From Spirochaetia bacterium (GTDB lineage Bacteria > Spirochaetota > Spirochaetia > DSM-2461), in contig CAXXIA010000002.1 in NCBI GenBank assembly GCA_963666985.2, forward strand, positions 1,856,001 through 1,920,000: a DNA stretch of 64,000 nt. Direction: 5' to 3'. The notes beneath the pieces were generated by a model. The model had not been told where the DNA came from. It saw nothing but the letters and a program-made list of their open reading frames with translations, and made no database searches. The stretch's first letter is position 1. Every line of letters starts with the position of its first letter. This document shows positions 3,052 to 61,312 of the stretch, one piece after another. The position numbers were made by a program, and so were the translations under genes.

Positions 3052-3325
3052 AATTAACAGCTGTTGATGCGCAGCGGCCGCTAATGAGATTAGCGGCCTT
3101 GGGCCGAGCGATGGTAGTCATATGAGAGTAGTTGGTTTTCGAAAAGATAAAATCAGATTGATACGGCTCGGCCAAATTTCGCTTTGGCAATGGCTCTTGC
3201 AGATGCAGTTCTCCAAGTGATGTGATACCATCAAAGGCAAACAAGGTATTGCTGTAAAACAGCAAGAGCACATGCCAACCGGCTACGCCGGCCGCGAAAC
3301 TTCGCATACCAGCGGAACGTTTAGC
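3052..3325 (+). repeat. attC-like site 1 (long form)
   Basis: AATTAAC-AGCTGTTGATGCG...CGCATACCAGCGGAAC-GTTTAGC. Confidence 0.9.
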
Positions 3326-3560
3326 GAAAAAATCCAGAAAGCCTTCTACCGCTTCGGCATCCCGGGGCGAATTTTGACAATATATTCTTATAGCGAAGTA
3401 ATTCCGGAGATCCATTTATTTCCATATTGTGCGGTGCTTAAAAATTTCAATTTGCTTGAGAAAAATAATTCTTTAATAGTCGATTTATTGGTTAACCACT
3501 TACTCAGAATGACTTGAGTAACAAAATCTGGGTGCTAGTACGGTTTCTCTGCGGAAGGGC

Positions 3561-4289
3561 TTAGTGAACTAATTTCTTTCGTCGTTCATCAAGGTCAGTT
3601 AAGGCTTTAGCTGAGATATACTTACTAAGTATTCGAATAATTCTTTTTTTCTTTGCACGAGGTAAATCTAGAATTAACAAAAATATGCTGTCGTATGCAT
3701 CTCGTCCATATTCAAAATCAAAAAGAATTTTCCGTGTATTGCGAATCGCTCGTCTTCTTGTTTTTCGCTTGTTTAGAAACGATAAGAGACCATATTTCCC
3801 GATATCATACAGGCCTGCGGCCAGGATTCCCATAGCAATCGTATTGAGAATTGAGAAGTAAGATCCATCATCACCACCACCCCAGCCAAATGGTGTTTTT
3901 CTTTGGAGATTAATCAGAGCTTGATAGTCACGCTCTTTCCCCTTTATAATTTCTTCACGAGCAGCCTCGAATCGTTGATCATAAAGCAGATGTTCAACGA
4001 TGTCGTCCTGTGGCATAAAGAACTGAGTTGTTACTCCAATTCTTTTTGAGAATTCCAAGAGCAAGAAACGCTTAGGTAATTCCCATACGGCTGCAGCGAA
4101 TTGTTCATATTCGGAATCCTGCTGATTTAGTGTTAGTTCGGATGGCTTATCACGATCAACCCGAATCTTGTATCTATTTCCATCGTACTTATAAACGTCA
4201 ACACGTTCTTTCATTGCAAGGTTGAAAAGGCTTTCTTTCCAATCATCTCCCAAAAGGTTTTGGAGCCTATATACTCTAGATTGATTCAT
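3561..4289 (-). CDS. Hypothetical protein with hydrophobic segment and basic C-terminus (antisense cassette cargo)
   Basis: 242 aa ORF with GAGGTG RBS; no family recognised. Confidence 0.7.
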   Translation of the reverse strand: MNQSRVYRLQNLLGDDWKESLFNLAMKERVDVYKYDGNRYKIRVDRDKPSELTLNQQDSEYEQFAAAVWELPKRFLLLEFSKRIGVTTQFFMPQDDIVEHLLYDQRFEAAREEIIKGKERDYQALINLQRKTPFGWGGGDDGSYFSILNTIAMGILAAGLYDIGKYGLLSFLNKRKTRRRAIRNTRKILFDFEYGRDAYDSIFLLILDLPRAKKKRIIRILSKYISAKALTDLDERRKKLVH

Positions 4290-4517
4290 GATTCACACCT
4301 CGTATCTTGCATTATGCTTAAATAGTAAACATCGCTAAAGAATTTCATAGCCCTTCATCAAATCAAATGCGTAGCAAAATATGATTCGTCCATTACAGGA
4401 TATAAAGAAACATGGAAAAGTTGTATGCAGTCTCGCAAGCTTCTAGGATTTCTTTAGCACCTGAAGCACGTCGTGCATCAGATGAAAGTTTTGATAGGGA
4501 TTTTGCTGGATTTTATC

Positions 4518-4733
4518 GCTAAACAGCTGTTGATGCGCTCCGGCCGCTAAAGGTGTTTAGCGGCCTCCGGGGCTCCGCCCAAATTTCGTTTTGGCATGGC
4601 GTCTTGCAGATGCGTTTCCGAAAGTGATGTGATACAGTCAAAGAGAAACACGGTTTTGCAGAAGAAGAGCAAGAGCGCATGCCAACCGGCTACGCCGGAC
4701 ACGAAACATTCGCATAACAGCGGACCGTTTGAT
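4518..4733 (+). repeat. attC-like site 2
   Basis: GCTAAAC...GTTTGAT. Confidence 0.9.
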
Positions 4734-4755
4734 GAACAACACAAAAGGGAATTAC

Positions 4756-9001: not shown

Positions 9002-9272
9002 AAGAAACAGCTGTTGATGCGCGGCGGCCGCTAATGTGATTAGCGGCCTTGGGCCGAGCGATGGGTATTGGTTGAGAGTTAATGATTTCTGTAAAAGGGA
9101 AAAATCAAATTGAATCGGCTCGGCCAAATTTCGCTTTGGCTGCTTGTGTAGAGATGTTTTGGTTCGGAGTCTGTGGTAAGGTTAAAAAGCGAGCGGAGGT
9201 TCTGGGAATTGTGTTGGGCAGCCAACCGGCTTTGCCGGACGCGAAACTTCGCATAACAGCGGAACGTTTGAT
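9002..9272 (+). repeat. attC-like site 5 (long form)
   Basis: AAGAAAC...GTTTGAT. Confidence 0.9.
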
Positions 9273-9291
9273 GACAGAATTAATTTAGGAT

Positions 9292-10634
9292 TGAGCGACC
9301 AGGACATCCTTTACATTTTAGGTTCAGGACATCGTTTACACAAAACAAGCTTAAACGAAGCATTTGAATCCATCAACTGAAGGGAGAAAGGCATAGGTTT
9401 TCAAATCAATTTCTCCCAATCTGAGATTGTCAAACCATACGGTGAAGCTCTCATCCTCATTCTCCCGAAGTCCAACTTGGTATCCTGAAAAGACATAACT
9501 GACAAAGACTCTATGCCTGTCGATAGTAACGGCTCCCCGATTATTCACCATTCTCACCAGATACCCGGCCGGGTAGATCACCTGAGGGATTCGAGGAGGG
9601 AAAGGCCGATTGGACTTTGTGTAAATACTTCCGGGAGTCTGCATTTTGAGAGCTTCATGCGGACGAACACTGTTGAATTGATTTCTCCAAACATCAAAGT
9701 GTGCCTGATGTTCTGAGAGGTTCCCTTGAATCTGTCCCTGCAATTCGCGTTTGATATCGGCATGCATTCTTTCATGCCCTCCGTTTTCACAAGGCCTTCC
9801 TGGAGTGATGCGATCAAGTTCAATTCCCAAGGCCAGCCACCAAACACTTAAGCGGGTGAGTCCGAGTAATCCCTTCATGGAAGCAAAGGGTGGTCCGTTA
9901 TCGGAGCGGATTACCCGAGGGATTCCATAGAGAGAAAAGAGCTTTTCGAACTCTGTTCTAACTTCTTGTGTGTCAGCCTTTTGGAGAGCTTTGATGGTGA
10001 AGATGTATTTGGAGTATTCATCCCGAACCGTCAGAGGTTCACACTTTTCATTATCGGGAGTGTACCACCATCCTTTGAAGTCGACCGTCCAGATATCATT
10101 AGGGGCTTTGGCCTGCAGATGTGTTTGGATTCGGCTGCCTTTGGTCTGCTGCCGTTTCTTTCGATGATGAACCAGTCCTGCTTTATCAAGGATGCGTTTG
10201 ACGGTGGTGAGGCTTGGGGGATTATTATGAGGATGGGTCTTCTGGTAGATCTCGAGAATCTTTTTTGGCCCCCAGCTGGAGTTGTGCAACGTCTTGATCC
10301 GGATAATACCGCATATAACGTCTTCAGGCGTTTGGTTGGGGCTGCTGCGAGGTCTACGGGGTCGTTCCTTCAACCCGGCGAGCCCTTCCTGGATAAACCG
10401 GTTTTTCCATTTAAGGCCTGTCGGCCGGGAGATCCCGTACTCAGCACAGAGGTCTTTCATACAGACATGGGGATCCATGGCCTTGAGGGCGAACTCGAAT
10501 TTGACGTCCATAATATTGGTCTCCTTCCACGGCATAACCAGCACCTCGATAAGGGAAAGTGCTGATCATTTTAGTTCTTGTCGTGTAAAGGATGTCCTGG
10601 TACTCTCGTGTAAACGATGTCCTGAACCCGTACC
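9292..10634 (-). mobile_element. IS481-family element, variant 1 (no target duplication)
   Basis: TGAGCGACCAGGACATCC...GAACCCGTACC; same as 30129-31471. Confidence 0.92.
9351..10535 (-). CDS. IS481-family transposase
   Basis: HTH + rve DDE core. Confidence 0.92.
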   Translation of the reverse strand: MPWKETNIMDVKFEFALKAMDPHVCMKDLCAEYGISRPTGLKWKNRFIQEGLAGLKERPRRPRSSPNQTPEDVICGIIRIKTLHNSSWGPKKILEIYQKTHPHNNPPSLTTVKRILDKAGLVHHRKKRQQTKGSRIQTHLQAKAPNDIWTVDFKGWWYTPDNEKCEPLTVRDEYSKYIFTIKALQKADTQEVRTEFEKLFSLYGIPRVIRSDNGPPFASMKGLLGLTRLSVWWLALGIELDRITPGRPCENGGHERMHADIKRELQGQIQGNLSEHQAHFDVWRNQFNSVRPHEALKMQTPGSIYTKSNRPFPPRIPQVIYPAGYLVRMVNNRGAVTIDRHRVFVSYVFSGYQVGLRENEDESFTVWFDNLRLGEIDLKTYAFLPSVDGFKCFV

Positions 10635-10696
10635 GAATTTAGGCCTTAAGAGGATACTGAAGACATAATGCAAGGAGAAAGAATAGTATATTCCAT

Positions 10697-11260
10697 TTAT
10701 TTTTTGGCAAACGCCGATAATCCATTACGTACAACTCTGATCATATTAACATTTTCTTCAAAACGATCAAGAATTTCAGCATAAATTTCGATACATTGCT
10801 GATCTGGACGTGTTACAGTTTTCTGAAGAAGGTGATAGACGTCTTTTTCATGAAGCCCTTTTTCTGCTAATTTAATCTGTAACTCTCGTTTTGTCTCATT
10901 AAGTTGAATATGACCTAGTGCTGTTTCCTTTAGTATAGAAAGCATTCGATCAAATTCATTCTGTAGACCTTTCTTTTGCTTTTCAAATTGTCTTTTTTCT
11001 GTCATTAACCGAACTACAATTGCTACACCAACACCCGCTACTACACCGACAAGCAATGTCACAATTCCGAGAGTGAGGGTTAGTACATTTAAAGAAAAAG
11101 AAAAGAAATTATTTGAATCATCAGGAGATAGTAATCTCTCACCTGGACTAGTCATTGAGGATTGAGAGGAATGGTCAGCACCAATCTCAGCATGCATATC
11201 TTGAGTTTGAGCAGAAAGACAAGCACTAAATAATAATATAAAAATGGCTAATCTTTTCAT
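10697..11260 (-). CDS. Membrane protein with signal peptide and coiled coil
   Basis: Hydrophobic N-terminus and TM segment; coupled to response regulator. Confidence 0.72.
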   Translation of the reverse strand: MKRLAIFILLFSACLSAQTQDMHAEIGADHSSQSSMTSPGERLLSPDDSNNFFSFSLNVLTLTLGIVTLLVGVVAGVGVAIVVRLMTEKRQFEKQKKGLQNEFDRMLSILKETALGHIQLNETKRELQIKLAEKGLHEKDVYHLLQKTVTRPDQQCIEIYAEILDRFEENVNMIRVVRNGLSAFAKK

Positions 11261-11628
11261 ATAGCTATTGATCTTCTCAGTGTTTCAAGGTCAATTGGTT
11301 TTTCAACAATATTCAACTTAGTATCTTTTGGAAAAGCTTGAAGAAGCTCACTTCGTGATCTTGCTGATATTACGAGTATGGGTACTTTTTTATTTTTGGC
11401 CCGAATTCGTTGATATAACGCAATGCCTGTTTCTTTTGCTTCTTCAGGATCCATAGAATCCGCGAGTTCCATCATTATGTCTAAAATTATTATATCCTTT
11501 TTCACAACTTCATTTAAATCAGTAATTACTCCTTCAGCATCTGTATATATACTAACTGAATGATGTTTCTTTAGCAGTCTATAGTTTTCAACAGCATCCG
11601 GGTCATCTTCGATAATGACTATTTTCAT
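11257..11628 (-). CDS. Single-domain response regulator (REC)
   Basis: IIEDD, ILDIMM, ISA, EKP motifs. Confidence 0.9.
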   Translation of the reverse strand: MKIVIIEDDPDAVENYRLLKKHHSVSIYTDAEGVITDLNEVVKKDIIILDIMMELADSMDPEEAKETGIALYQRIRAKNKKVPILVISARSRSELLQAFPKDTKLNIVEKPIDLETLRRSIAI

Positions 11629-13750: not shown

Positions 13751-14031
13751 ATATCAAAAAATTTGATTTAGCAATAAAAAAATAAGCAACTATAAATTAA
13801 ACGAATAAAATTAATTGTATAAAGAAATTAGGCATAAAGGGAATTAGCTGCTTAATCTAAGGAGGGTCTAATTACAGACTTCTTGGGGCGAATGTTAAAT
13901 GACAATTATGATATTCCGTCGCTTACGGCAGGGCAGTTCATTTTAATGAATTGTAACAAGAGTAATGGTGAGTCTTTCCTAAGTATAATTAATGTAGTTT
14001 TTTTGGGAAAGCGGCTAAATACACAGTTTAG

Positions 14032-14161
14032 CAGGCTGTTGAAGAAGAAAGATTTGGTTCGGAGGCAAGGCCGCCGGAGCGCAGAAAGCGCAGTGTAGTA
14101 GAGCTACATGAGCATTTCGAGCACCGCATACGGCCTATAAGATTCTTTTTTCAACAGCCTG
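14032..14161. mobile_element. 130 bp MITE
   Basis: Terminal IRs CAGGCTGTTGAA / TTCAACAGCCTG flanked by TTAG direct repeats. Confidence 0.75.
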
Positions 14162-14433
14162 TTAGAAATCAAAATAGTTTATAAGCGAGTTAAAATTGTC
14201 TATAATTGATCCAGAATAGTCAAAAAAATTAGAGTAATATTGATGTTGTTTTATGTCTGAAATTGTAGTGTCAATAGTTAATTTGGATATAGTCAATTTA
14301 AAATATAATACTCAGATAATATGAGTAATTTCTTATAGAGGTATTTATATTCTTGATTATGTCATTACTATATGAATTTGTTAATGACAGGTAAGATATA
14401 CTTCTTTGATGGAAGGCTACTAGCACAAGTGAC

Positions 14434-14646
14434 AGATAACAGCTGTTGATGCGCTCCGGCGCCAACTCTCGTTGTCGCCTCCGGGGCTCCGCCCAAATTT
14501 CGTTTTGTCATGACTCTTGCAGATGCGTTTCCGAAAGTGATGTGATACCATCATCAGAGAACAAGGCATTGCTGTAAAATGGCAAGAGCACATGCCAACC
14601 GGCTACGCCGGACACGAAACGTTCGCATAACAGCGGGCCGTTAAAG
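14434..14646 (+). repeat. attC-like site 6
   Basis: AGATAAC...GTTAAAG. Confidence 0.9.
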
Positions 14647-25506: not shown

Positions 25507-25576
25507 GATAAAATCTGAAATATCTTTTTGAGTCATCTATGCATCAATAAATTGCGATTAATTTACCATAAATAAA

Positions 25577-39013: not shown

Positions 39014-39075
39014 CTTGTCGTCTTAGTGGTCGAAAAATCAACAGGTCCGCCCCTCCGCCATCGTGGCTTCGGGGC

Positions 39076-39163
39076 TGCACAGAATACTCGTTATCGTCAG
39101 CCGATATCCGTGTCAGCGGTCCGCTTCGCCTTTGGCTCCGCCCAATAACGGATACTCTGTGCA
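39076..39163. repeat. REP-like imperfect palindrome
   Basis: TGCACAGAATACTCGTTAT...ATAACGGATACTCTGTGCA. Confidence 0.55.
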
Positions 39164-39246
39164 CCTGCCAGAAATTAATCAGGGCCATCTGAAATACATC
39201 GTGTATTTCAGATGTATTTTTTTGGGGTTCTTTTCTGGATTTTATC

Positions 39247-39459
39247 GTTAAACAGCTGTTGATGCGCTCCGGCCGCTAAAAGTGTTTAGCGGCCTTCGGG
39301 GCTTCGCCCAAATTTCGCTTTGGCGATGGTTCTTGCAGATGCGTTCCTGAGAGTTGTGTGATAGGCTCAAATGCGAACAGGCTTTCTGCTGAAGTGCAAG
39401 AACGCATGCCAACCGGCTTCGCCGGCCGCGAAACTTCGCATACCAGCGGACCGTTAAAC
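39247..39459 (+). repeat. attC-like site 18
   Basis: GTTAAAC...GTTAAAC. Confidence 0.9.
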
Positions 39460-44748: not shown

Positions 44749-44956
44749 ACATAACAGCTGTTGATGCGCTCCGGCCGCTAAAAGTGTTTAGCGGCCTCCG
44801 GGGCTTCGCCCAAATTTGCCTCTGTCATAGATTTTGCGTAAGTCTGTCTCTGTGGTATTATAAGTTGCAGTTAGCGATTGAGATTGTAAAATTTCGCAAA
44901 ATCTCCGCCAGTCGCTACGCGAACGGCAAACTTCGCATAACAGCGGGCCGTTTTAC
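44749..44956 (+). repeat. attC-like site 23
   Basis: ACATAAC...GTTTTAC. Confidence 0.9.
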
Positions 44957-45072
44957 GAAAAAATCCAGAAGGCCTTTTACCGTGGCGGCGTTCGAACCGC
45001 CACGAACAGAATCATCTTATTGATATAGGATCTATTTATGAAGATAAGAAAACCTTAAAGCAGGTGTGAATA

Positions 45073-45909
45073 TTAGACTGATATTTCATCAAAGAAATCT
45101 TTCCAACGATACTTTGGTTTCCAATCAAGAAGTTGTTTAATATTTGTACAATTAACCAAAGATTTATAAGGTGTTTCTATATATTCTTTACCGCCCCTCC
45201 AGTCTGCAAAAGGGCATATTTTGTTTACCAGATCAATACTACTCAATCCGGAGGTAGTAATATCATCGGAAGAGATTCCATAACAATGGTATCCAGAAAA
45301 ATTAGTTGTACTTGCCGTAAGAATTACTTCTGAAAGATCTCGAATATCAATAAATGCACCATATTCCCAATATGGAGACCATTCATATTCAGGATTCGCC
45401 CTTCTCTTTTCCACTATGAAATTATAAGTACATTCGTTCCAAATCCCTGGAGCACGAATACATAAAACAGTTATTCCTTTTGATAGAGAATATTCTTTGC
45501 ATGCCTCTTCAGCCAGTTTCTTTGAGATTGAATAACTCCTTATCGGGTTACATGGATAGTTATCATCAATTGGTAAATATTCCGGTTGCCCTTCTCCTTG
45601 GAAAATTCCAAGAGCATCAACGCTACTCATAAATATTAGCTTTTTAATCTTGCAATAGACCATTGCATTGAGAATATTGTATGTTCCAATTAGATTGGTT
45701 CTCAAAGTATCAAGAGGTGAATCATTCTCAATTGCAGCTAAGTGAATAACTACATCGCATCCATTCATATTTTGCACAAGTAATTCAAAATTATGGATGT
45801 CTTGATTATTACTTAAATCATATCCAATTACATTATGTCTATTAGCTTTAAACTTCGCTGATACTTCACAACCAAGAAACCCAGCATTGCCAGTAATAAA
45901 AGCCTTCAT
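45073..45909 (-). CDS. NAD-dependent epimerase/dehydratase (extended SDR)
   Basis: ITGNAGFLG, HLAA, YSISK. Confidence 0.88.
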   Translation of the reverse strand: MKAFITGNAGFLGCEVSAKFKANRHNVIGYDLSNNQDIHNFELLVQNMNGCDVVIHLAAIENDSPLDTLRTNLIGTYNILNAMVYCKIKKLIFMSSVDALGIFQGEGQPEYLPIDDNYPCNPIRSYSISKKLAEEACKEYSLSKGITVLCIRAPGIWNECTYNFIVEKRRANPEYEWSPYWEYGAFIDIRDLSEVILTASTTNFSGYHCYGISSDDITTSGLSSIDLVNKICPFADWRGGKEYIETPYKSLVNCTNIKQLLDWKPKYRWKDFFDEISV

Positions 45910-46155
45910 GTTTACATTTCTGCAACAGCAGATCCTCACAAATAGTATTCGTTTATTGTATTATCGATTAGCAAAAGCCAAAAAAAATCGCGAAAAGGTA
46001 CTCTAAGAAGAATAACACGTCTCATCTATATGAAATATAGAAATGAGAAATACCTTAGTTCTTTTATAGGCCTTCTATTATTTAGTTATAGAAATCTGAA
46101 TCATTTCCTGTGATTCAGATAAAATACTTCTTGGCTCTCCTAGCTGAATTTCTTC

Positions 46156-46367
46156 GTAAAACAGCTGTTGATGCGCTCCGGCGTCAACTGGCGTTGCCGC
46201 CTCCGGGGCTTCGCCCAAATTTCGCTTTGGCCATGGCTCTTGCAGATGCAGCTCGGTAAGTGATGTGATACCATCAAAGGCGAACATGGTATTGCTGAAA
46301 CAAGCAAGAGCACATGCCAACCGGCTTCGCCGGCCGCGAAACTTCGCATACCAGCGGGCCGTTTAGT
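46156..46367 (+). repeat. attC-like site 24
   Basis: GTAAAAC...GTTTAGT. Confidence 0.9.
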
Positions 46368-46436
46368 GAAATAATCGAAATTGTATTCTAGCGCCTCGGC
46401 ATCCGTGCCTCGGCGATTAGTAATAGGAGGTTCCCA

Positions 46437-46847
46437 GTGGCAGATCCAAGAGCGTTCATTAGTTTTGATTTTGATCATAACGAGACAGAAAAGAATCTTT
46501 TCGTTGGACAATCAAAAAACTCAAAAACACCATTCAGCATAGAAGATTGGTCGTCAAAATCATCCCTACCACAAGACCAATGGCAAAAACTAATTAAGGA
46601 TAAGATTAACAGATGCAATATGGTAATAGTTCTTGTTGGTAGGTATATGGCATCAGCAACAGGTGTGGGTAAAGAAATTAAGTTTGCTAAAGATTTAGAT
46701 GTCCCAGTCTTTGGTGTTTATGTTGATGGTGCAAATACTTCTAGCAATTTGCCTGGTGGACTGCCTCGCAATCGGACAATAGTCTGGAACTGGCCCAATA
46801 TCGCAGCAGCTGTCAATCAAATGATGGGTGAAGGGAAGAACCGATGA
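46437..46847 (+). CDS. ThsB-like TIR domain protein
   Basis: AFISFDFD...VIVLVG...GVGKEI (putative catalytic Glu). Confidence 0.85.
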   Translation: MADPRAFISFDFDHNETEKNLFVGQSKNSKTPFSIEDWSSKSSLPQDQWQKLIKDKINRCNMVIVLVGRYMASATGVGKEIKFAKDLDVPVFGVYVDGANTSSNLPGGLPRNRTIVWNWPNIAAAVNQMMGEGKNR

Positions 46848-47809
46848 GGAAAGCGTTGTGTGTCGGCATTAACGATTATGGCAAAAACTCGTTAAAAGGA
46901 TGTATCGCCGATGCGTCTGCAATAGCTACGCTCCTAGAAACGCACGGAGATGGTTCTCCAAACTTTGATATTCGCCTAGAAACGGATGTAGCAAAGAAAG
47001 CATCTTTGAAGGGTATGATTTCAGAACTCTTTTCTGGCGATTGTGAAACAGCATTGTTCTACTTTTCTGGTCATGGTTTTCTAAATGAGCTTGGTGGCTA
47101 CATTGTCACGCCTGATTATTCAAAATACGACGAGGGCGTTTCGATGGACGATATTTTGAAGTATGCCAATGATTCTAAGATCAAGGATAAAATTGTAATT
47201 CTAGATTGCTGTCATTCGGGAGCAATGGGTTCTCCTGCAATTACCGGTAATACCTCACTGCTTAATGAAGGTGTTTCGATTCTTACTGCTAGTCGTGACG
47301 ACGAATCTTCGATAGAGATTAATGGTCATGGTGTATTTACGAATTTGCTCCTTGATGCTCTTCAAGGTGGAGCTGGCGATTTGAGAGGTCATATTTCACC
47401 AGGTGGCATTTATGCTTTCGTGGATCAGGCTCTTGGAGCATGGGATCAACGACCAGTTTTTAAAACAAATGTATCGCGTTTTACTTCACTACGGAAAGTC
47501 ATACCTCAAGTACCTGCTGCTATACTGCGAAAACTAGTTGATTTCTTTCCCAATCCACAGGATGAGTTCAAACTCGATCCGTCATTTGAAGATACAAATT
47601 CGACAGACATCAAGCATAAGTTAATAGAGCCATATGCAAATCCTGATCACGTTGAGGTTTTTAAGAAGTTGCAGAGCCTACAAAGTGTAGGCCTGGTGGT
47701 TCCTGTAGATGCCGACTATATGTATTTTGCTGCTATGGAATCTAAATCATGTAAACTAACATCACTTGGTTCCCATTATTGGCGTCTGGTTAAAGACAAG
47801 AGAATTTAA
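46844..47809 (+). CDS. Caspase-like (C14) protease
   Basis: ALCVGINDY, FYFSGHG, ILDCCHSG dyad. Confidence 0.9.
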   Translation: MRKALCVGINDYGKNSLKGCIADASAIATLLETHGDGSPNFDIRLETDVAKKASLKGMISELFSGDCETALFYFSGHGFLNELGGYIVTPDYSKYDEGVSMDDILKYANDSKIKDKIVILDCCHSGAMGSPAITGNTSLLNEGVSILTASRDDESSIEINGHGVFTNLLLDALQGGAGDLRGHISPGGIYAFVDQALGAWDQRPVFKTNVSRFTSLRKVIPQVPAAILRKLVDFFPNPQDEFKLDPSFEDTNSTDIKHKLIEPYANPDHVEVFKKLQSLQSVGLVVPVDADYMYFAAMESKSCKLTSLGSHYWRLVKDKRI

Positions 47810-47923
47810 AGTTTTCTCTTCATTCCTTGATTTTGGTGTATGAAAAGATGAAAACTAAAACGTCAGAAGCACATCGTGTGCTTCTGACGGATATTTTTGT
47901 TTTTTTTAAATATCGATTACTTC

Positions 47924-48196
47924 ACTAAACAGCTGTTGATGCGCGGCGGCCGCTAAAGGTGTTTAGCGGCCTTGGGCCGAGCGATGGGAAACTATGAGTT
48001 TTATGATTTCTGTAAACGGGAAGAATCAAACTGGTTCGGCTCGGCCAAATTTCGTTTTGGCCATGGTTCTTGCAGATGCGTTCCTGGAAGTTGTGTGATA
48101 GGCTCAAATGCAAACAGGCTTTCTGTTAAAGAGCAAGAACGCATGCCAACCGGCTTCGCCGGACACGAAACTTCGCATACCAGCGGGCCGTTAAAG
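47924..48196 (+). repeat. attC-like site 25 (long form)
   Basis: ACTAAAC...GTTAAAG. Confidence 0.9.
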
Positions 48197-52473: not shown

Positions 52474-52681
52474 ATATAACAGCTGTTGATGCGCTCCGGC
52501 CGCTAAAAGTGTTTAGCAGCCTCCGGGGCTTCGCCCAAATTTGCCTCTGTCATAGATTTTGCGAGAGGCTGAAGTCGTGGTAAGATGAGTTGCAGTTAGC
52601 GGTTGATGTTGTGAAGAATCGCAAAATCTCCGCCAGTCGCTGCGCGAACGGCAAACTTCGCATACCAGCGGACCGTTTTAC
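52474..52681 (+). repeat. attC-like site 30
   Basis: ATATAAC...GTTTTAC. Confidence 0.9.
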
Positions 52682-52934
52682 GAAAAAATCTAAATGGCCT
52701 TCTACCGTGGCGCCGTCCATGGCGCCACGAATAGTTACATTGCAAAGCCTAAAACTTAATAAAAATTCCAGAAAATACGGCGAAAGCGAATCAATAGTCA
52801 ACCTCAAAGCGAGAAGAAACATATAATATATCGTCAAAAACAACAGAATTTTTACCTTATAGGTCCTGCGGACAATTTGCAATTTTAAATCTATCTACTA
52901 ATAAAGTTTTAGCTACATTTAATTGTTAGATAGA

Positions 52935-53906
52935 TCATTCTGCTATTTCTATGGGACTTCTTACTAAATCTGTATTTTTGAAGCCTTTATTTTCTAAGAA
53001 AGATCTTAAACTTTGTTCTGTCCTTTTGGGATCAAGTGAATTTCCATAAGAAATTTTGCTAATAGGAATTTGAATAATTTCTGCATTCTTCTCATCATTA
53101 CTTATTTTTTTGTAAAAGCCCAACTCATGATATGGTATTAACAGATTATTTCTTTCCCGGAAATTTATACTTACATTATTCTGAGAGGGGTAGGACACAA
53201 TTCTCCATTCTTTTTCTTCATTAAATTCTTTTCTTTTGATGTATGGGATAATATATATTATTATGTCTTTCAAAAATTCTATTATCAATCTAAAACGGAT
53301 ATCTTCTTTTTTTGCATCATTTTTTATATTCTTTATCCTATCATATAATTCAACAACAGTATTATTTGTAATAGATAATATAAAATTTTTTTGTTCCTCA
53401 AATTCATATAATACTGGTTTGGGACTTAAACATGGTAAAAAATTCTTTCTTGTAATAGAATCATGATGTGGTCCTATAACAATACCATCTATATTGTTTA
53501 AGCAAAAACAATATCCTCTTCCGTTTTGCCCATATTCCCTCCATTGGCCTAGTAAATCGTCTTTTTCACAAAACGACGCTATATAGATTTCTGTATCTAA
53601 AATTTTGTAACTATTGATTCCCTTTTCAAGAGGAATTAGAATAACCTCCAATGCTAACTTTATGATTTCTTTATCACCAATATTATTTTCAATCACCTCT
53701 CTTACAACTTGTATCCCATATTCAATTTCATTTGGATCATTCAGAAAGCTATAGTGAGTAGCCCATAAACTATTAGTATCAACAATATTCTTTAGGCCGC
53801 TAGCTGTTGTATAGTGGTATAGCTTATTAATGTCTTTATTCTGAAAATATTTATCAACCTCATCAGAGATTTTATCAAGAAAATATAGATATTTCTCTTC
53901 AGCCAT
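52935..53906 (-). CDS. DUF2971 family protein
   Basis: LYHYT, LNDPNE, SFC...DLLGQWREYG, EEKEWR. Confidence 0.85.
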   Translation of the reverse strand: MAEEKYLYFLDKISDEVDKYFQNKDINKLYHYTTASGLKNIVDTNSLWATHYSFLNDPNEIEYGIQVVREVIENNIGDKEIIKLALEVILIPLEKGINSYKILDTEIYIASFCEKDDLLGQWREYGQNGRGYCFCLNNIDGIVIGPHHDSITRKNFLPCLSPKPVLYEFEEQKNFILSITNNTVVELYDRIKNIKNDAKKEDIRFRLIIEFLKDIIIYIIPYIKRKEFNEEKEWRIVSYPSQNNVSINFRERNNLLIPYHELGFYKKISNDEKNAEIIQIPISKISYGNSLDPKRTEQSLRSFLENKGFKNTDLVRSPIEIAE

Positions 53907-54036
53907 TTTTCATACCTTAATTCCAAGATATACTACTTTTTCATCACTTTCCCGATAAGTAATATATATATCGTAAAATACTGTAGTGGAATTCCCAGCT
54001 TTTGATAGACACTGCTAAACTCAAAATGAGGAAGGA

Positions 54037-54333
54037 GTGTACATCATGGGAAGTCCGCGATATTCGGACGAATTCAAGGCAGAAGCAGTCGGCCAGGTTG
54101 TTGAGCGGGGCTACTCCATCAAGGAAGTCTCTGAGCGTATAGGAGTCTCAACCCATAGCCTCTATAAGTGGCTGAAGGCCGATTCTCGAAATCCAAAAGC
54201 ACCAGAATCGGCAAAAGCAAATAAGGAGCTTGAAGTCGAGAATGCCAGGCTGAAAGCAGAGCTGCGGCGGGTGCAGGAAGAGCGAGATATCTTAAAAAAA
54301 GCCGCGGCATACTTCGCGAGTCAGTCCGAGTAA
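54037..54333 (+). CDS. IS3 OrfA
   Basis: Same protein as other copies. Confidence 0.92.
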   Translation: MYIMGSPRYSDEFKAEAVGQVVERGYSIKEVSERIGVSTHSLYKWLKADSRNPKAPESAKANKELEVENARLKAELRRVQEERDILKKAAAYFASQSE

Positions 54334-54371
54334 GATATGCCTTCATCAAAAACTACAGGGCTGAATTCAGA

Positions 54372-55190
54372 GTGAAGACTATGTGCCGGGTTCTCGATGT
54401 CAATCGAAGCGGATTCTATGCATGGTTGAGAAAACCTCAATCAGAGAGAAAGATTGAAGACATTCGGTTGTTGAAGAAGATTCGCCACTTCTACGAAGAA
54501 AGCGATCAGGTCTACGGAAGTCCACGAATCCATGAGGATTTGATGGAAGACGGAGAATCCTGCAGCGTCCATCGAGTAGCCAGAATCATGCGAGAGCATG
54601 GTATCAGGGCGATGGTCGGCTTCAAGATGCGTCGATTCAAGTATGGAAAACCGTCCCAGGCTGCCCCGAACCATCTCCAGCAGGACTTTAATGTAGAAGA
54701 ACCCGATACTGCGTGGACAACGGATATTACCTATATTCGAACTCATGAAGGTTGGCTGTATCTCGCAGTTGTCATGGATCTTTATTCCAGGAGAATCATC
54801 GGCTGGTCCATGCAGAACACGCTTCATCGTGATCTGGTTATCCAGGCCTTACTGACAGCTGTTTGGAAGAGACGCCCGAAAAACAAAGTCCTTATCCATT
54901 CCGATCAGGGCGGCCAATTTGACAGCGGTGACTGGATTAGATTCTGTCGTGACAACGGACTGAAGAGAAGTATGAGCCGTCGTGGAAACTGCTGGGACAA
55001 TGCAGCCATGGAATCATTCTTTGGTAGTTTGAAGAAGGAACGGATTCGCCGGAAGACATATCGAACAAGGGATGAAGCACGGTCTGATGTGTTCGATTAT
55101 ATTGAAGCATTTTACAACCGGAAGCGTCGCCACAAGCATCTTGGCGGGATCTCTCCGGTTGAATTTGAAAAGGGTTCTATTGCAAGCTAG
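54372..55190 (+). CDS. IS3 OrfB transposase
   Basis: Same protein as other copies. Confidence 0.92.
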   Translation: MKTMCRVLDVNRSGFYAWLRKPQSERKIEDIRLLKKIRHFYEESDQVYGSPRIHEDLMEDGESCSVHRVARIMREHGIRAMVGFKMRRFKYGKPSQAAPNHLQQDFNVEEPDTAWTTDITYIRTHEGWLYLAVVMDLYSRRIIGWSMQNTLHRDLVIQALLTAVWKRRPKNKVLIHSDQGGQFDSGDWIRFCRDNGLKRSMSRRGNCWDNAAMESFFGSLKKERIRRKTYRTRDEARSDVFDYIEAFYNRKRRHKHLGGISPVEFEKGSIAS

Positions 55191-55381
55191 AGGTGTCTAT
55201 AGAAGTCTGGGAATTCCATAGAACCGTATTAAGCAGTATAACACGGTTCATTCTTGGAAAGTATAATATTGGGAAAGAAACTTGTTGCCCGATATGGCCT
55301 ACTTTTATCCGTCCATAGTCCTCTGAATCACGTCCTGTGATTCAGAGGAAATATTTATTGGTCCTATTGCCAGATTTCGTC

Positions 55382-55595
55382 GTAAAACAGCTGTTGATGC
55401 GCTCCGGCCGATAAAGGTGTTTACCGGCCTTCGGGGCTTCGCCCAAATTTCGTTTTGGCGATGGCTCTTGCAAATGTGTCTCCAGAAGTGATGTGATAAG
55501 CTGAAGAGCGAACGGGCTTTCTGTTAAAGTGCAAGAGCACATGCCAACCGGCTTCGCCGGACACGAAACGTTCGCATAACAGCGAGCCGTTTGAT
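55382..55595 (+). repeat. attC-like site 31
   Basis: GTAAAAC...GTTTGAT. Confidence 0.9.
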
Positions 55596-56933: not shown

Positions 56934-57141
56934 ATCAAACAGCTGTTGATGCGCTCCGGCCGCTAAAGGTGTTTAGCGGCCTTCGGGGCTTCGCCCAAAT
57001 TTGCCTCTATCACAGATTTTGCGTAAGACTTTCGCTGTGGTAAGATGAGTTGTAGTTAGCGGATGAGATTGTGAAGATTCGCAAAATCTCCGCCAGTCGC
57101 TTCGCGAACGGCAAACTTCGCATACCAGCAGAACGTTATAA
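56934..57141 (+). repeat. attC-like site 32
   Basis: ATCAAAC...GTTATAA. Confidence 0.9.
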
Positions 57142-57349
57142 GCCATTTTTCTGTATAGATTTATATGTAACAAATAAGAATAACAAATAGCGCCAGATGG
57201 ATTATTCGCAAAAGGAGAACGCGCGATAGCTATAAGGCGGTCCTTGAAGTATACTAAGTATACAGAAATTGCTTCTCTTCACACTTCATTTGGCATTTAC
57301 TCTCTTCTGAGTTGAGGAGATTACGATTTTGAACAAAGGAGGAGTGAAA

Positions 57350-58243
57350 ATGAGGATCGGGACGTTCAATGTAGAGAATCTATTTGCGAGGTATAGATTT
57401 AACAGCAACTTTGATCCGATTAATAGCGATGGATTTTCAATAAATAATCTTGCTTTTAGCATTAACGATGAAACTGCAAAACAAATAACCGCAAAGGCAA
57501 TACGAGAAGTAGATGCTGATATCTTAGCATTACAGGAAGTTGATAATCTAAAAGTTCTTGATCGATTTGTTTCAAGCTATCTTGCAAAAGAAAAGTATAA
57601 GCATCGGATATTGATTGATGCATTTGATCCAAGAAATATCGATGTTGCACTCATTTCTAGATATCCAATTAAGAATGTAAAAACTTATAGGTCTGAAAGA
57701 AATAGATCAAATACTGCGAGTCTTTTCTCAAGAGATTGTCTTGAGGTTGTGATTGATGCTGAAGGAAAAGAATTGACGGTATATGTTAATCATTTCAAAT
57801 CAATGTTAGGTGGTCGTGATAATACTTTTACTAGGAGAAAAGAACAAGTTGAAAAAGTTGCTGAAATTATAAAGGAAGCATGGCAGATAAAGAACTACGA
57901 AGGCAACTATGCAGTAGTCGGTGATTTTAATGATTATTTAGAAGGCCGGACCTCGCTGACTGATTTGATTACACATCCAGGATTGAAGAATGTCAGTGAA
58001 CGTATTTTAGAATCAGAAAGATGGACTCACTTTTGGGCCGGTGGCAATGAATATAGACAATTAGATTTCATACTACTATCCCCTCAGTTGGCCGAAATAA
58101 ATAATAATGCTCCAGACATAATGAGAATGGGGCTTCCTTATCGAGCCGAAAAATATTCTGGAGATCGGTTTGATTTCGTTGGAGAAAACACTCCAAAGGC
58201 GTCTGATCATTGTCCTATTGTCATGGATATAGAATTAGTTTAG
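57350..58243 (+). CDS. Endonuclease/exonuclease/phosphatase (EEP) protein
   Basis: TFNVEN, LQEV, NHFKS, GDFND, SDHCP. Confidence 0.9.
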   Translation: MRIGTFNVENLFARYRFNSNFDPINSDGFSINNLAFSINDETAKQITAKAIREVDADILALQEVDNLKVLDRFVSSYLAKEKYKHRILIDAFDPRNIDVALISRYPIKNVKTYRSERNRSNTASLFSRDCLEVVIDAEGKELTVYVNHFKSMLGGRDNTFTRRKEQVEKVAEIIKEAWQIKNYEGNYAVVGDFNDYLEGRTSLTDLITHPGLKNVSERILESERWTHFWAGGNEYRQLDFILLSPQLAEINNNAPDIMRMGLPYRAEKYSGDRFDFVGENTPKASDHCPIVMDIELV

Positions 58244-58289
58244 ATCGTAAAAGGAATTAGGATAGGTAATACTACTCAGACAAAATGGC

Positions 58290-58507
58290 TTATAACAGCT
58301 GTTGATGCGCTCCGGCCGCTAAAAGTGTTTAGCGGCCTCCGGGGCTTCGCCCAAATTTCGTTTTGGCATGGCGTCTTGCAGATGCAGATCCAGAAGTGAT
58401 GTGATACAGTCAAAGGCGAACATGGTGTTGCTGTAGAAGAGCAAGAGCACATGCCAACCGGCTTTCAGCCGGACACGAAACGTTCGCATAACAGCGGGCC
58501 GTTTGAT
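58290..58507 (+). repeat. attC-like site 33
   Basis: TTATAAC...GTTTGAT. Confidence 0.9.
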
Positions 58508-58742
58508 GACAGAATTAATTTAGGAAATAGTTTTTCTCATTTTTAAAAAAAGAGAAGGCAATTCCCCGTACAAATATCAATTTAAATTCGTGAAAAGCTC
58601 TGAAAGTTTTTGAGAAAAATCAAAGTGTTCCAGTTGTCGAGGTTGTTTCTCCTGATATGAGTCTTGTTCAGTTGAATAAGAACAAGAGAGCCTTTTCACG
58701 GTGTTTGATCTTTATGGGCTTTGCTTAATTCCGTCATCAAAC
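58501..58742. other. ORF-less cassette N2
   Basis: Homologous to 40547-40789. Confidence 0.8.
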
Positions 58743-58810
58743 AGCTGTTGATGTCAACACCGACGAAACATTTCCGGATTTCACCGATTTAGTTTTTCCG
58801 GTTTTGGGCG

Positions 58811-59575
58811 TCAAAGGAAGTCAACGACTCCCGCTTTCAACCGATCCTTCATTCGGTACGAGTCTCCTTGAAGACTCAGGATATGAGCATGGTGAAGCAG
58901 ACGGTCCAGGGTTGCACTGGCAACAGCCTCATCACTCATTATCTCCGCCCATCTGCCAAATGGCTTGTTCGTCGTAATGATCATACTCCCCTGTTCATAC
59001 CGGGCATTCACAACCTGGAAGAAAAGATTAGCCTGTTCGGGTGTCAGCTTCTCGTAACCGACTTCATCGATGAGAAGCAGGTGCGGTTTTCGGAGCCATA
59101 CCAGCCGACGCTTGAGCCGGTTGTTCTCTCGGGCAAGAACCAGGTTCTCAATGAGGTCGATGCAGGTGGTATGGTAGGTGGTGAATCCCTCCATGCAGGC
59201 CTTGTGCCCCAGGGCCAGCATCAGATGAGATTTTCCCAGGCCGCTGGGACCCATGAGAATGACGTTCTCCTTTCGCTCGATGAAGGCCAGAGAGGAGAGC
59301 TCGTCAAACTGGCGGTTGGTGATACCACCTTTGAGCCACCCCCTGTCGAAGTCTTCCAGCCTTTTCACTGCCGGCATTCCTGAAAGCTTCAAGCGGCTCT
59401 TGGCGCTCCGTTCTTTACGGGGGATGTATTCAAGTTCCATCAAGTCGGCAACGATATCCAGTACCGTCTGTTCCTGCCGGCGGGGTTCTGCCAGGAAGGA
59501 TTCCAGTCCTGCGGACATGAAACTCATACCCAGCGAATTCATTCTCTCGGTGACGGTCTCAAGTTTGATATTCAT
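58811..59575 (-). CDS. istB: IstB AAA+ helper
   Basis: GPSGLGKS, LLIDEVGY, LDRLLHH. Confidence 0.93.
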   Translation of the reverse strand: MNIKLETVTERMNSLGMSFMSAGLESFLAEPRRQEQTVLDIVADLMELEYIPRKERSAKSRLKLSGMPAVKRLEDFDRGWLKGGITNRQFDELSSLAFIERKENVILMGPSGLGKSHLMLALGHKACMEGFTTYHTTCIDLIENLVLARENNRLKRRLVWLRKPHLLLIDEVGYEKLTPEQANLFFQVVNARYEQGSMIITTNKPFGRWAEIMSDEAVASATLDRLLHHAHILSLQGDSYRMKDRLKAGVVDFL

Positions 59576-60825
59576 ACCGAGACTCCCACAGCGACAAAGC
59601 GCTCATAGTAGGCAGGATTTCTGATATCGACGATGGTCTGCTCATCTTGTTGCTTCCGGACTGGTTTTTTCGCCGACTTCTTACGCTGCTTCTCCCACAG
59701 GGTAAAGAGTGCTTCCCGATCTTCATTGCGGATATCCTTCTGCCGGGAGCCAGCTGGAAGGAGATTGAATAGCCGTATGGAAACCTTCCCATTGAGGATT
59801 TCCCCCTGCATGGAAAGCGCATCGATTTTCAGCGTCAGCTTCTTACCAACCAATACAGGCGGCACGCTGTACTTGTTAGTCTTGTAGGTGACTGAGCCTT
59901 CTCGACTGACAATGAGCTGAATGCTGTCACGGTAGTCAAAAGCTCCCTCTGGCGGTGCCGGTTGCAGGAAGGATTTCTCCACCTCATATCGCTGGGCACG
60001 ACTTTCCTGGTAGTCCCGGAGCTCTTTCTGCTGAACTTCAGTCAGCCAGGGCAGAATGGCGTCATTGAGTTCTTCGATCGTCTTCAGGCCACTACGCCGT
60101 GCCTGAGAAAGGAAGTTACCCGAAAGGTAGTCGATGAACCTCTCTACTTTTCCTTTGGTCTGGGGACGCCTGACGGCGCATCGTCTTGGAGAGAAACCGT
60201 AGGAGGAAGCGAACTCCAGTAACCGGGAGTTGGTCTTCCACTCTTCTCCGTCGTGGACCCATGCTGTTTTCATGTTGTCGTACAATACAGTCTGAGGAAC
60301 ACCGCCAAAATACTCAAAGGCTTTCTGGTGGCAGGCCAGCAGTGTGCCGCTGGTCATATCGGTGGTGAATCTCACATAGGGAGTCCGGCTGTAGCCGAGG
60401 ACCATGACGAAGGCGTAGACGCCTCGCCAGTGTTCCTTCGGCAATATCTTCCAGTCCATCTGTGCCTGGTAGCCGGCCTGGGTTTCGAAGCGGCGAACTA
60501 CTTCTCTCTGAATCTCATCTCGGGTCTCTTTGGCGAAATCACGGAGGATGGTGATTCCTCCGGTGTAACCCATGGCGCAAAGATTCTTATAAAGCACCTC
60601 GCAATTGAAGAGCGGTTCCTCCTCAAGTACACTGCGAATATGGGATTTGAAGTGGTCGAGCTTGCTCTTCCGTTTCTTCCTGGGGCTCATTTTGGGACTG
60701 TGTCCGCTGAGGTAATTTCGAACCGTTCGGTCGGTAACGCCGAGTATTTCGGCGATTCGGTACTGCTTGTACCCTTCCTTGGCCAGCACTTGAGCCTGGT
60801 GCATGCGTTTCTCCTGGAGCTTCAC
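59572..60825 (-). CDS. istA: IstA transposase
   Basis: QAQMDW, YDNMKT, PQTKGKVER. Confidence 0.93.
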   Translation of the reverse strand: MKLQEKRMHQAQVLAKEGYKQYRIAEILGVTDRTVRNYLSGHSPKMSPRKKRKSKLDHFKSHIRSVLEEEPLFNCEVLYKNLCAMGYTGGITILRDFAKETRDEIQREVVRRFETQAGYQAQMDWKILPKEHWRGVYAFVMVLGYSRTPYVRFTTDMTSGTLLACHQKAFEYFGGVPQTVLYDNMKTAWVHDGEEWKTNSRLLEFASSYGFSPRRCAVRRPQTKGKVERFIDYLSGNFLSQARRSGLKTIEELNDAILPWLTEVQQKELRDYQESRAQRYEVEKSFLQPAPPEGAFDYRDSIQLIVSREGSVTYKTNKYSVPPVLVGKKLTLKIDALSMQGEILNGKVSIRLFNLLPAGSRQKDIRNEDREALFTLWEKQRKKSAKKPVRKQQDEQTIVDIRNPAYYERFVAVGVSV

Positions 60826-61200
60826 GGGCAGTGTCCTTTTCGATGGGTGTATGGTTACTCCATCTTAGGGATACTCGCCCGTTTTTATTGGCTCAAAACC
60901 GGAAATCTTATTCCGGTGTTTTCAGGAAATTTATCACCGGTGCTGACAGTTGATACGCTCCGGCCGCTAAATCTCTTTAGCGGCCTTCGGGCCGAGAAGA
61001 TGGTTATTAGTTGAGTGTTATGATATTTGCCAAGAGGAAATGAGATTGAAACGGCTCGGCCAAATTTCGCTTTGGCTGCTTTTGTTGAGATGTCTTGGTT
61101 CGTAATCTGTGGTAATGTTAAAAGCGAGCGGAGGTTCTGGTAATACCGTGGGGCAGCCAACCGGCTCCGCCGGACGCGAAACTTCGTATACCAGCAGACC

Positions 61201-61312
61201 GTTTTACGAAAAAATCCAAAGGCCTTTTACCGTGGCGGCGTCCGTGCCGCCACGAATAGTTTCATGTAAGGAAATAGGGTTATTTGAAGTTAAGAAGATT
61301 CGTAAAAATAAC
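61201..61312. other. Near-empty cassette (chassis only)
   Basis: Leader nearly the same as at 44950 and 52675 but no cargo gene. Confidence 0.7.

What the first reader, a model, noticed from the sequence alone, without database searches (positions are those of the whole stretch)
3319..61312. A reusable cassette 'chassis' with unrelated antisense cargo, and an empty version
Seen: cassettes starting at 44950 (epimerase), 52675 (DUF2971) and 61201 (no gene) share the leader GTTTTACGAAAAAATC..GGCCTT(T/C)TACCGTGGCG-loop-CGCCACGAA, with a covarying stem. The first two share a tail hairpin TCTGAATCA-N7-TGATTCAGA (46095-46119, 55322-55346) about 35 bp before attC. A related leader and/or tail occurs at 3319/4460-4524, 25500 and 39187-39253. 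Cargo is unrelated and mostly minus strand with its own upstream DNA. Inference: genes are loaded as DNA into a pre-existing empty cassette between two hairpins, a possible route to cassette genesis, which remains unexplained.
Basis: partly seen in the sequence, partly recalled or inferred. Interest (0 to 1): 0.85.

Follow-up and report, generated by a model that had tools for sequence, protein, structure and literature searches.

The report
Gene cassette nested inside a cassette
The supposedly empty gene cassette in this bacterium's integron-like array is really a carrier cassette with its own internal docking site, and its three copies in the genome each hold a different anti-virus gene cassette of another integron type, inserted backwards at the same base.

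Summary
The shared leader and tail are real, but the 'empty' cassette is a misreading. The cassette at 61201 runs to 64106, past the window edge. The site taken as its end (61312) is the crossover of a canonical attC on the minus strand. That attC closes a whole foreign cassette (type IIG restriction-modification, 63907 down to 61312).

Two more copies upstream of the window share the same ends (97% and 85% identity) and hold different reversed cassettes (SIR2-Argonaute; IetAS) joined at the same base. That base scores like the attI sites of relatives' full-length integrons, while this array is headed by a short integrase lacking the IntI domain.

Best reading (0.6): a carrier cassette with an internal reversed attI that swaps cassettes of the other integron type. 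No empty copy was found, and activity is inferred.

The wider leader/tail family (about 13 cassettes, also in relatives) is the outer part of one folded recombination site, inherited as a unit while cargo changes. Earlier scan notes already report short-integrase arrays and paired cassette ends on other DNA; none shown describes the nesting. Ten paper searches found no description either.

The parts
61201..64000 (+). Outer (carrier) cassette; it continues 106 bp beyond the window end to window-relative 64106 (G000:C2:1917201-1920106). Beyond the window lie its tail hairpin (64039-64067, followed by a T run, flagged terminator-like) and its outer array-type attC (64104-64231, 127 bp, shared with the SIR2-Argonaute copy)
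61201..61216 (+). Left arm of the 16-bp terminal inverted repeat (pairs with 64091-64106, beyond the window); in a model of the excised circle the stem extends to about 24 bp
61231..61254 (+). Leader hairpin, covarying stem
61312..61440 (-). Inner canonical attC (3x3 unpaired spacer, extrahelical G); crossover G at 61312; belongs to an attC family of full-length-IntI integrons of relatives
   Evidence: fold z -4.7
61312..63907 (-). Inner (nested, reversed) gene cassette; its first 8 bases complement its own R'' box 8 of 8
61465..63750 (-). Cargo gene, 761 aa, type IIG restriction enzyme-methyltransferase
   Evidence: PADLOC E 8e-39
63908..63940 (-). Internal attI-like site; crossover G at 63908, 198 bp from the outer cassette end; same base used in the copies at C2:1830748 and C2:1855436
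63908..64000 (.). Conserved right part of the carrier, continuing to 64106 beyond the window (97% and 85% identical in the two other copies); no promoter above chance by the scan
44950..46162 (+). Family cassette: leader hairpin 44981-45004, NAD-dependent epimerase 45073-45939 (minus), tail hairpin 46094-46120; no inner attC detected
52675..55388 (+). Family cassette: leader hairpin 52706-52729, DUF2971 gene 52935-53906 (minus), IS3-type element about 54037-55190, tail hairpin 55319-55349; no inner attC detected
3319..4524 (+). Degenerate family cassette, 242-aa orphan gene 3561-4289 (minus), imperfect tail hairpin near 4458-4485
39186..39214 (+). Family tail hairpin at the end of a rearranged cassette (36488-39253) whose start duplicates that of the cassette at 39453 and is followed by an IS3-type element
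46361..47930 (+). More distant family cassette with plus-strand cargo (TIR-like gene and caspase-like gene), tail hairpin from 47861

Best explanation
Outer system (shown as anatomy): an ~87-cassette integron-like array headed by a 277-aa tyrosine recombinase without the IntI-specific domain. Its attC sites are long and asymmetric, and its cassettes have ends that are complementary over ~16 bp. The leader and tail are the outer portion of the recombination site that forms when the cassette circularises: an extended stem flanked by two hairpins (fold predicted; role inferred). One lineage of such ends is old and has changed cargo many times.

Inner system: one member of that lineage carries, in reverse orientation, an attI-type site of the other (canonical, full-length IntI) integron class found in relatives, with about 200 bp of upstream DNA. 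Shown: three copies hold three different complete cassettes, each with its own reversed attC, joined at the same base. Inferred: the joins were made by attC x attI recombination, by a full-length IntI once or transiently present, or by the short integrase. The carrier then moves the whole package within the short-integrase array. It therefore works as an adapter that converts canonical cassettes (here all anti-phage genes) into array-type cassettes, expressed independently of array position. Decay of the inner attC would leave ordinary-looking antisense cargo.
For: Reversed canonical attC: 2 hits in the 159-kb array, both on the minus strand in carrier copies, 0 in 600 kb of background. A profile trained only on relatives' sites gives 64.5 and 54.1 there, against a best of 29.6 in the other 4.7 Mb. 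Folding z is -4.7, -4.0 and -2.1. Each inner cassette start complements its own R'' box (8/8, 6/7, 7/7). Identity between the three copies stops at the crossover.

The inner attC family occurs in 22 of 400 class genomes; 13 of 15 of those tested hold an IntI above the TIGR02249 cut-off, with such sites in their arrays. The internal site ranks 7 of 5261 GTT positions under a model from 6 confirmed attI sites, and 4 of 5261 with 11 sites. Against a held-out same-genus attI candidate the three copies rank 6, 6 and 9 of 8055. It scores 7.8 like that candidate, while the array's own attI scores -11.6.

A decayed reversed attC lies in a fourth family member (score 30.0) and a decayed forward one in another cassette (33.8). 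The same attC family is abundant, with other flanks, in other contigs of the same samples (depth 118-157 against 7). Cargo: type IIG RM, SIR2-pAgo, IetA/IetS.
Against: No empty carrier and no carrier with two inner cassettes was found. The carrier's right part was not found in 37 family genomes or by exact pattern in metagenomes, so all three copies come from one genome. Outside the attI core it aligns to none of 50 intI-attI regions tried. The third copy ranks only 259 of 5261 with the 6-site model; its inner attC was missed by both scans, and its left junction differs for 10-15 bp. Five of the 11 training attI sites and the held-out one were picked by eye; the held-out one was noticed after the fact and its crossover could not be confirmed. 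The genome has no full-length IntI (93% complete). No promoter above chance was found. Most family members, including 44950 and 52675, show no inner attC. A comparison with attI sites of short integrases was not completed (collected none).
Confidence: 0.6

Rival explanations
1. The internal site is an attG-type secondary hotspot (or a one-off secondary insertion) in a non-coding cassette, not attI-derived. Later swaps went through the inner attC or through homologous recombination between copies.
For: Integrases insert cassettes at GWT sites, and some hotspots reach ~1e-3, close to attI (bioRxiv 10.1101/2022.09.11.507474, passages and Discussion read). No homology to real intI-attI regions beyond the core. 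The third copy has a different left junction.
Against: The core resembles relatives' attI in two models and a held-out comparison. The hotspot right-hand motif described in that paper (positions +6 to +9) is absent from the reconstructed flank (read), though it was defined for IntI1 in E. coli. Replacing the whole cassette, first bases included, needs re-use of this same site.
Confidence: 0.2
2. Captured and frozen: a block of attI region plus first cassette was copied from a canonical integron into array-type ends up to three separate times, or once with exchange long ago. The internal site no longer works in this host.
For: No full-length IntI in the genome. Inner attC sites are at different stages of decay (z -4.7, -4.0, -2.1, 0.1). 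No excised or empty form was seen (contigs drop rare variants).
Against: All three copies have the same right boundary (195-198 bp) and share the left flank. The two closest copies are 97% identical yet hold unrelated cargo with intact attC, which points to a recent swap. Full-length IntI occurs in 5 of 10 same-genus genomes tested.
Confidence: 0.12
3. One reading: an empty chassis exists and ordinary genes are loaded as DNA between the two hairpins, giving new cassettes.
For: Ends are co-inherited while cargo changes. Cargo often lies antisense with 120-230 bp of upstream DNA, including an alpha-amylase gene in a relative. A captured attI region would itself need a DNA-level capture.
Against: The cited empty cassette does not exist. 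The array's gene-less 243-bp cassettes are unrelated to this family. No donor locus was found to map boundaries. Hairpins of this loop type also mark unrelated plus-strand cassettes and occur outside cassettes in one metagenome contig (L083).
Confidence: 0.05
4. Assembly chimera: the inner cassettes belong to a co-resident organism and were joined in through the shared attC repeat.
For: The inner attC family is far deeper in other contigs of the same runs. No listed contig bridges a junction by 31 or more letters on both sides; the best has about 30.
Against: The right junction involves no shared repeat. Three diverged copies with three different attC sites would each need two false joins at one base. 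The cargo contig has depth 7 and 0 differences, and runs into the carrier's right part.
Confidence: 0.03

Closest known systems
Canonical integron attI x attC cassette insertion (IntI1, VchIntIA; sedentary chromosomal integrons)
   Same: The inner unit is a textbook cassette: gene plus canonical attC, start complementary to its R'' box, joined at G|TT, behind an attI-like site.
   Different: The attI-like site is not next to intI. It lies inside another cassette, in reverse, and the array's own recombinase lacks the IntI domain.
Delta-attI-type unusual cassettes of class 1 and 2 integrons (PMC12901181; first 10,000 characters and keyword passages read)
   Same: attI sequence inside a cassette array, up to 244 bp of attI2, also across integron classes, and shown recombination-competent.
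   Different: There the attI fragment replaces the attC downstream of a gene. Here the outer cassette keeps its own attC, the site is reversed and internal, and it holds a complete second cassette.
attG secondary sites and SALINs (bioRxiv 10.1101/2022.09.11.507474; passages and Discussion read)
   Same: A single complete cassette inserted away from an integron platform; hotspots can be as efficient as attI.
   Different: The target here is itself mobile, is used at the same base in three copies, and scores like attI.
Group IIC-attC introns and IS elements that target attC (PMC8876359 passages; IS1111-attC recalled from memory)
   Same: Elements found inserted in cassette arrays, often reversed.
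   Different: They insert at or in attC and encode their own enzyme. The inner units here encode only defence genes and sit mid-cassette.
Self-promoted, reversed and gene-less cassettes (toxin-antitoxin cassettes; Treponema ORF-less cassettes with antisense promoters; PMC8876359 passages)
   Same: Antisense cargo with its own upstream DNA inside a large array.
   Different: No report seen of such a cassette carrying a docking site; a promoter in the carrier was not shown.
Short-integrase integron-like arrays and paired cassette ends noted earlier in this scan (e1-8063674, e1-6763008, e1-6895748; unchecked AI notes)
   Same: Recombinase without the IntI insertion; non-standard sites; cassette ends that pair into one large folded site.
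   Different: None of the notes shown describes a nested reversed canonical cassette.

Membership tests
Canonical integron (outer array) | IntI with the integron-specific additional domain | tested here: not met
   277-aa protein lacks ~43 residues against VchIntIA and against relatives' long IntI; below the TIGR02249 cut-off
Canonical integron (outer array) | Array of cassettes separated by folded sites with R''/R' boxes and a G|TT crossover, next to a divergent recombinase gene | tested here: met
   87 right ends and 90 left ends in one 158-kb block beside the gene
Canonical integron (outer array) | attC with symmetric 3x3 unpaired spacer and standard extrahelical base position | tested here: not met
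   Native sites read 1x5 and were not hit by the canonical scans
Canonical gene cassette (inner unit) | Canonical attC directly after the stop codon, folding on its bottom strand | tested here: met
   Two clear copies; third weak (z -2.1, missed by both scans)
Canonical gene cassette (inner unit) | First seven bases complementary to the cassette's own R'' box | tested here: met
   8/8, 7/7 and 6/7
Canonical gene cassette (inner unit) | Same cassette found in a canonical array elsewhere | tested here: inconclusive
   No close cargo homolog in 37, 240 and 250 relatives (one partial 40% hit), plasmids or viral contigs; the attC family itself is found in such arrays
attI site | Sequence resemblance to attI cores of the cognate integron class | tested here: met
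   Rank 7/5261 and 4/5261, 6/8055; third copy weaker; training set partly chosen by eye
attI site | Located next to an intI gene with Pc | tested here: not met
   No intI in or near the carrier; promoter matches at chance level
attI site | Recombines as double-stranded DNA with attC under IntI | not testable with these tools
   Needs a recombination assay
Delta-attI unusual cassette | attI fragment replaces the cassette's attC | tested here: not met
   Outer attC intact at 64104-64231
attG hotspot | GWT core plus right-hand motif at +6 to +9 (IntI1, E. coli) | tested here: inconclusive
   Core present; right-hand motif absent by reading; motif defined for another integrase
Group IIC-attC intron | Reverse transcriptase ORF and intron RNA | tested here: not met
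   Cargo families; 0 Rfam matches in the three carrier loci

The most novel reading that the evidence does not exclude
A mobile 'adapter' cassette: an array-type cassette that carries a working attI of a different integron class, still swaps canonical anti-phage cassettes, and so links two recombination systems with different integrases and different attC shapes. Decay of the inner attC then turns foreign cassettes into native ones, a DNA-level route by which at least some new cassettes of this array arise.
Probability: 0.4. Interest if true: 0.8.

Novelty: new variant of a known kind. Interest (0 to 1): 0.62.

Why it matters
If the internal site is active, integron docking sites are not confined to the platform beside the integrase gene: they can travel as cassettes and form nested arrays. 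That gives a concrete route for cassette exchange between two integron classes in one lineage and for position-independent expression of defence genes. It is also a small, clonable substrate (about 310 bp) to test how a recombinase without the IntI domain handles canonical and non-canonical sites. It bears on cassette genesis only partly: it shows conversion of existing cassettes and implies DNA-level capture of non-coding sequence. It does not show how a first attC is attached to a gene, which PMC4792948 (passages read) calls a subject without a reliable model. Array-finding tools would be expected to misparse such loci as an empty cassette plus an orphan gene (inference).

Tried and rejected
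Empty carrier: not in this genome (3 full copies, all occupied). The joints 120-2758 and 108-2895 are best read as other, occupied family copies, since their end points match where those copies diverge; the letters between are not given. No RNA holder was listed.

Exact-pattern scans found nothing for the internal site in metagenomes, for the family end in genome contigs (a relative that should match was not returned, so the blank is weak) or for the inner attC core in genome contigs. The tail pattern gave 6 metagenome loci: 1 true cassette end (L081), 1 non-cassette hairpin cluster (L083) and 4 apparently unrelated.

Arrays of 8 relatives with short integrases plus 8 further loci showed no nested reversed canonical cassette. 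These arrays were short (under ~20 kb) and my scanner missed many of their native sites, so this is weak.

No donor for boundary mapping: epimerase cassette and alpha-amylase cargo, each in 37 family genomes. Cargo proteins had no close relatives. Local alignment of the carrier's right part to 41 and then 9 intI upstream regions gave best z 2.0-3.5 at unrelated positions. The promoter scan was at chance level; an extended -10 candidate seen by eye is not counted. Rfam: 0 matches. The short-integrase attI set was not collected, so whether the site could also fit that class is open.

Rejected: 25500 as a member; neighbour recombination as the source of shared ends; the internal site as a decayed attC (no profile hit with its crossover at 63908).

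Literature: 10 searches; the phrase 'cassette within a cassette' with 'integron' returned 0. Subscription papers and supplements were not seen.


Full report
Setting. The window is G000:C2:1856001-1920000, inside an array with 87 attC right ends in one 158-kb block. A divergent 277-aa tyrosine recombinase gene lies at C2:1777133-1777966. That protein aligns to VchIntIA in two pieces with ~43 residues missing, lacks the same stretch against relatives' long IntI and is below the TIGR02249 cut-off. No full-length IntI was found in the genome (93% complete). Earlier scan notes call this genome a spirochaete; I did not test that. Native attC sites are mostly 190-270 bp, with a few of 126-145 bp, and have an asymmetric 1x5 spacer (read).

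What the leader and tail are. Of 87 cassettes, 67 are distinct by their first and last 22 bases. In 63 of the 67, at least 10 of positions 4-17 pair with the cassette's own end, against 3.8% of cross pairs. Position 11 is an A-C pair (T-G on the bottom strand) in 37. The first 16 bases of the 'leader' are therefore the complement of the tail end, a property of the whole array. Model circular junctions fold better than the linear ones in 72 of 76 cases (mean -57.7 against -46.0 kcal/mol). For family members the stem reaches about 24 bp and is flanked by the two hairpins.

The hairpins. Hairpins with this loop type and a stem of at least 6 bp number 23 in the array, all on the plus strand, against 4 in the other 4.7 Mb. 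With stems of at least 5 bp, 24 of 25 lie 30-50 bp from a start or 32-42 bp from an end. Both stems covary. The tail hairpin is terminator-like on the plus strand in the two copies scanned. Whether the hairpins act as DNA arms or RNA terminators is not decided. That their bottom-strand loops resemble very stable DNA mini-loops is recalled knowledge, not tested.

The family. About 13 cassettes share related ends beyond the inverted repeat (scores); the lower boundary is gradual. Leader and tail similarity covary (r 0.57, p 0.0065; r 0.45-0.58, p 0.004-0.02 without two of the three closest copies and with relatives added) and do not track array distance. Related ends flank other cargo in G006 (alpha-amylase, minus), G161 (plus), G028 (two cassettes) and metagenome contig L081. 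Cargo is minus-strand in 9 of 13 against 12 of 48. So the ends are an old unit that has changed cargo; this part of the finding stands.

The 'empty' cassette. The cassette at 61201 ends at 64106, just past the window, with tail hairpin and matching end. A scan for canonical attC gave two hits in the array, both on the minus strand: 61436 to 61312, and one in the cassette at C2:1826923. It gave none in 600 kb of background, and 1, 1 and 0 weaker hits in three shuffles. It follows the stop codon of the 761-aa gene, and its R'' box is complemented by the bases starting at 63908. The cargo is thus a whole canonical cassette lying backwards inside the outer one.

Three copies. The cassettes at C2:1826923-1830946 and C2:1851832-1855631 share the right part (97% and 85%) and the left part. 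Identity stops at the crossover, 198, 198 and 195 bp from the end. Inner attC sites differ (about 125, 52 and 46 bp) and so does cargo: type IIG RM; SIR2-pAgo plus a small phosphatase-like gene; IetA and IetS. The third inner attC is weaker: fold z -2.1, missed by both scans. A profile trained on 49 canonical sites from relatives also finds a decayed reversed site in the family cassette at C2:1794871 (30.0; PDC-S73 cargo) and a decayed forward site in the cassette at C2:1822711 (33.8). The rest of the genome gave 7 hits of 17 or more, the best 29.6. Neither decayed site folds better than shuffles. The epimerase and DUF2971 cassettes show no inner attC.

Where the inner sites come from. The inner attC of 61201 matches DNA in 22 of 400 class genomes. 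Of 15 of those tested, 13 encode an IntI over the cut-off, and such sites lie in the arrays upstream of it. In the three runs laid, the attC stretch has depth 118-157 in X1 against 7 for the cargo, with loose ends showing other flanks. These runs are one study and probably include the source sample, so they show a co-resident donor pool, not independent support for the nesting. Five of 10 same-genus genomes have a full-length IntI. A relative's short-integrase array also contains canonical sites in forward orientation, so the two types mix in this lineage.

Is the internal site an attI? I took 11 attI candidates from relatives, 6 confirmed by a complementary R'' box downstream and 5 by eye. 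With the 6, two copies rank 7 of 5261 GTT positions and the third 259. With all 11 they rank 4, 4 and 24; held-out true sites score in the same range. A same-genus candidate (G029), noticed afterwards and unconfirmed, shares a 10-base block at the same offset. Against it the copies rank 6, 6 and 9 of 8055, and 4 of 1165 AT-rich sites outside the array score as high. The three copies are homologous and count as one observation. Beyond the core there is no alignment to 50 intI upstream regions and no promoter above chance. I read this as attI-like, with an attG-type hotspot as the main rival.

Mechanism. Shown: nested anatomy, same junction, different cargo, canonical inner sites, non-canonical outer sites. 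Inferred: (1) a segment with an attI core, ~200 bp upstream and ~50 bp downstream was once captured in reverse between family ends; (2) cassettes were exchanged at it by attC x attI recombination; (3) the outer ends let the short integrase move the package; (4) inner attC decay fixes the cargo. Which integrase did step 2 is unknown. That integrases need the extra domain to read attC extrahelical bases is stated in PMC4792948 (passages), which favours a full-length IntI acting in trans or in an ancestor.

Comparison and novelty. Closest in print are delta-attI cassettes (PMC12901181) and attG insertions (bioRxiv 10.1101/2022.09.11.507474); neither is a reversed attI inside a cassette that keeps its own attC. 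What I saw of each paper: PMC12901181, the first ninth and passages; the attG preprint, passages and Discussion; PMC8352920, PMC8876359, PMC4792948, PMC7056807 and bioRxiv 10.1101/2022.02.06.479319, passages only. I read no supplements. Ten searches found no description of the nesting, but subscription papers are not covered. Earlier scan notes already report short-integrase arrays and paired ends on other DNA; a sequence look-up found no look-alike.

Verdict. Observation partly confirmed; the empty cassette is refuted; the real finding is a nested, reversed cassette at a re-used attI-like site, seen in one genome. New variant of a known kind; interest 0.62.

Noticed in passing
window 9292, 21974, 30129; also C2:1798275, 1810887, 1819843, 1838818, 1855914, 1927038, 1933553: An IS481-family element (397-aa transposase): 10 of its 13 copies in the genome sit 25-27 bp downstream of an attC crossover, all in one orientation, in cassettes of unrelated sequence. 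This suggests targeting at a fixed distance from the folded site. One paper search showed no obvious description in its listing.
   Followed up: partly
whole array, C2:1778054-1935900: Recombinase lacks the IntI-specific domain and the attC sites are asymmetric; related short integrases matched in 25 of 400 class genomes, several of which also hold a full-length IntI.
   Followed up: partly
L065 (G016) 11560-11830, 15235, 17811; L071 4913: Canonical attC sites lying in forward orientation inside the variable part of a native attC; in some copies a different cassette starts at the inner crossover.
   Followed up: partly
C2:1822711-1826726 (window-relative -33289): Large plus-strand gene (1258 aa) followed by a decayed forward canonical attC about 140 bp before the native end; probably another converted cassette.
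   Followed up: partly
window 40547, 49294, 49794, 58501 and four copies upstream: A 243-bp gene-less cassette with its own attC variant, repeated at least 8 times in the array, unrelated to the leader/tail family.
   Followed up: no
window 14640, 21948, 48190 and upstream copies: An ~845-bp nearly non-coding cassette repeated several times in the array.
   Followed up: no
window 58740-61201: An IS21-type element (58811-60825) inserted inside the attC that precedes the carrier cassette, about 12 bp after its left end.
   Followed up: no
window 9266-14440, 25500-28454, 36488-39253: Cassettes whose start and end do not pair; each contains IS copies and looks like a fusion of two cassettes. 9266-14440 holds a histidine kinase and response regulator, 36488-39253 a LysM-Ntox44 gene.
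   Followed up: no
window 57135-58296 and the first cassette at C2:1778054: The exonuclease-endonuclease-phosphatase cassette is present both in first position and here, a sign of copy-and-insert shuffling.
   Followed up: no
L094 (G016:C1:4637070-4640603): A second short recombinase gene preceded, in the same direction, by a cassette with a canonical attC of the same family as the SIR2-Argonaute copy's inner site.
   Followed up: no
L083 near 4456: Cluster of hairpins with the same loop type after an elongation-factor-like gene (its name is my reading, not a tool result), outside any cassette; REP-like.
   Followed up: no
window 25613-26416: Five 126-bp tandem repeats in a beta-propeller gene.
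   Followed up: no
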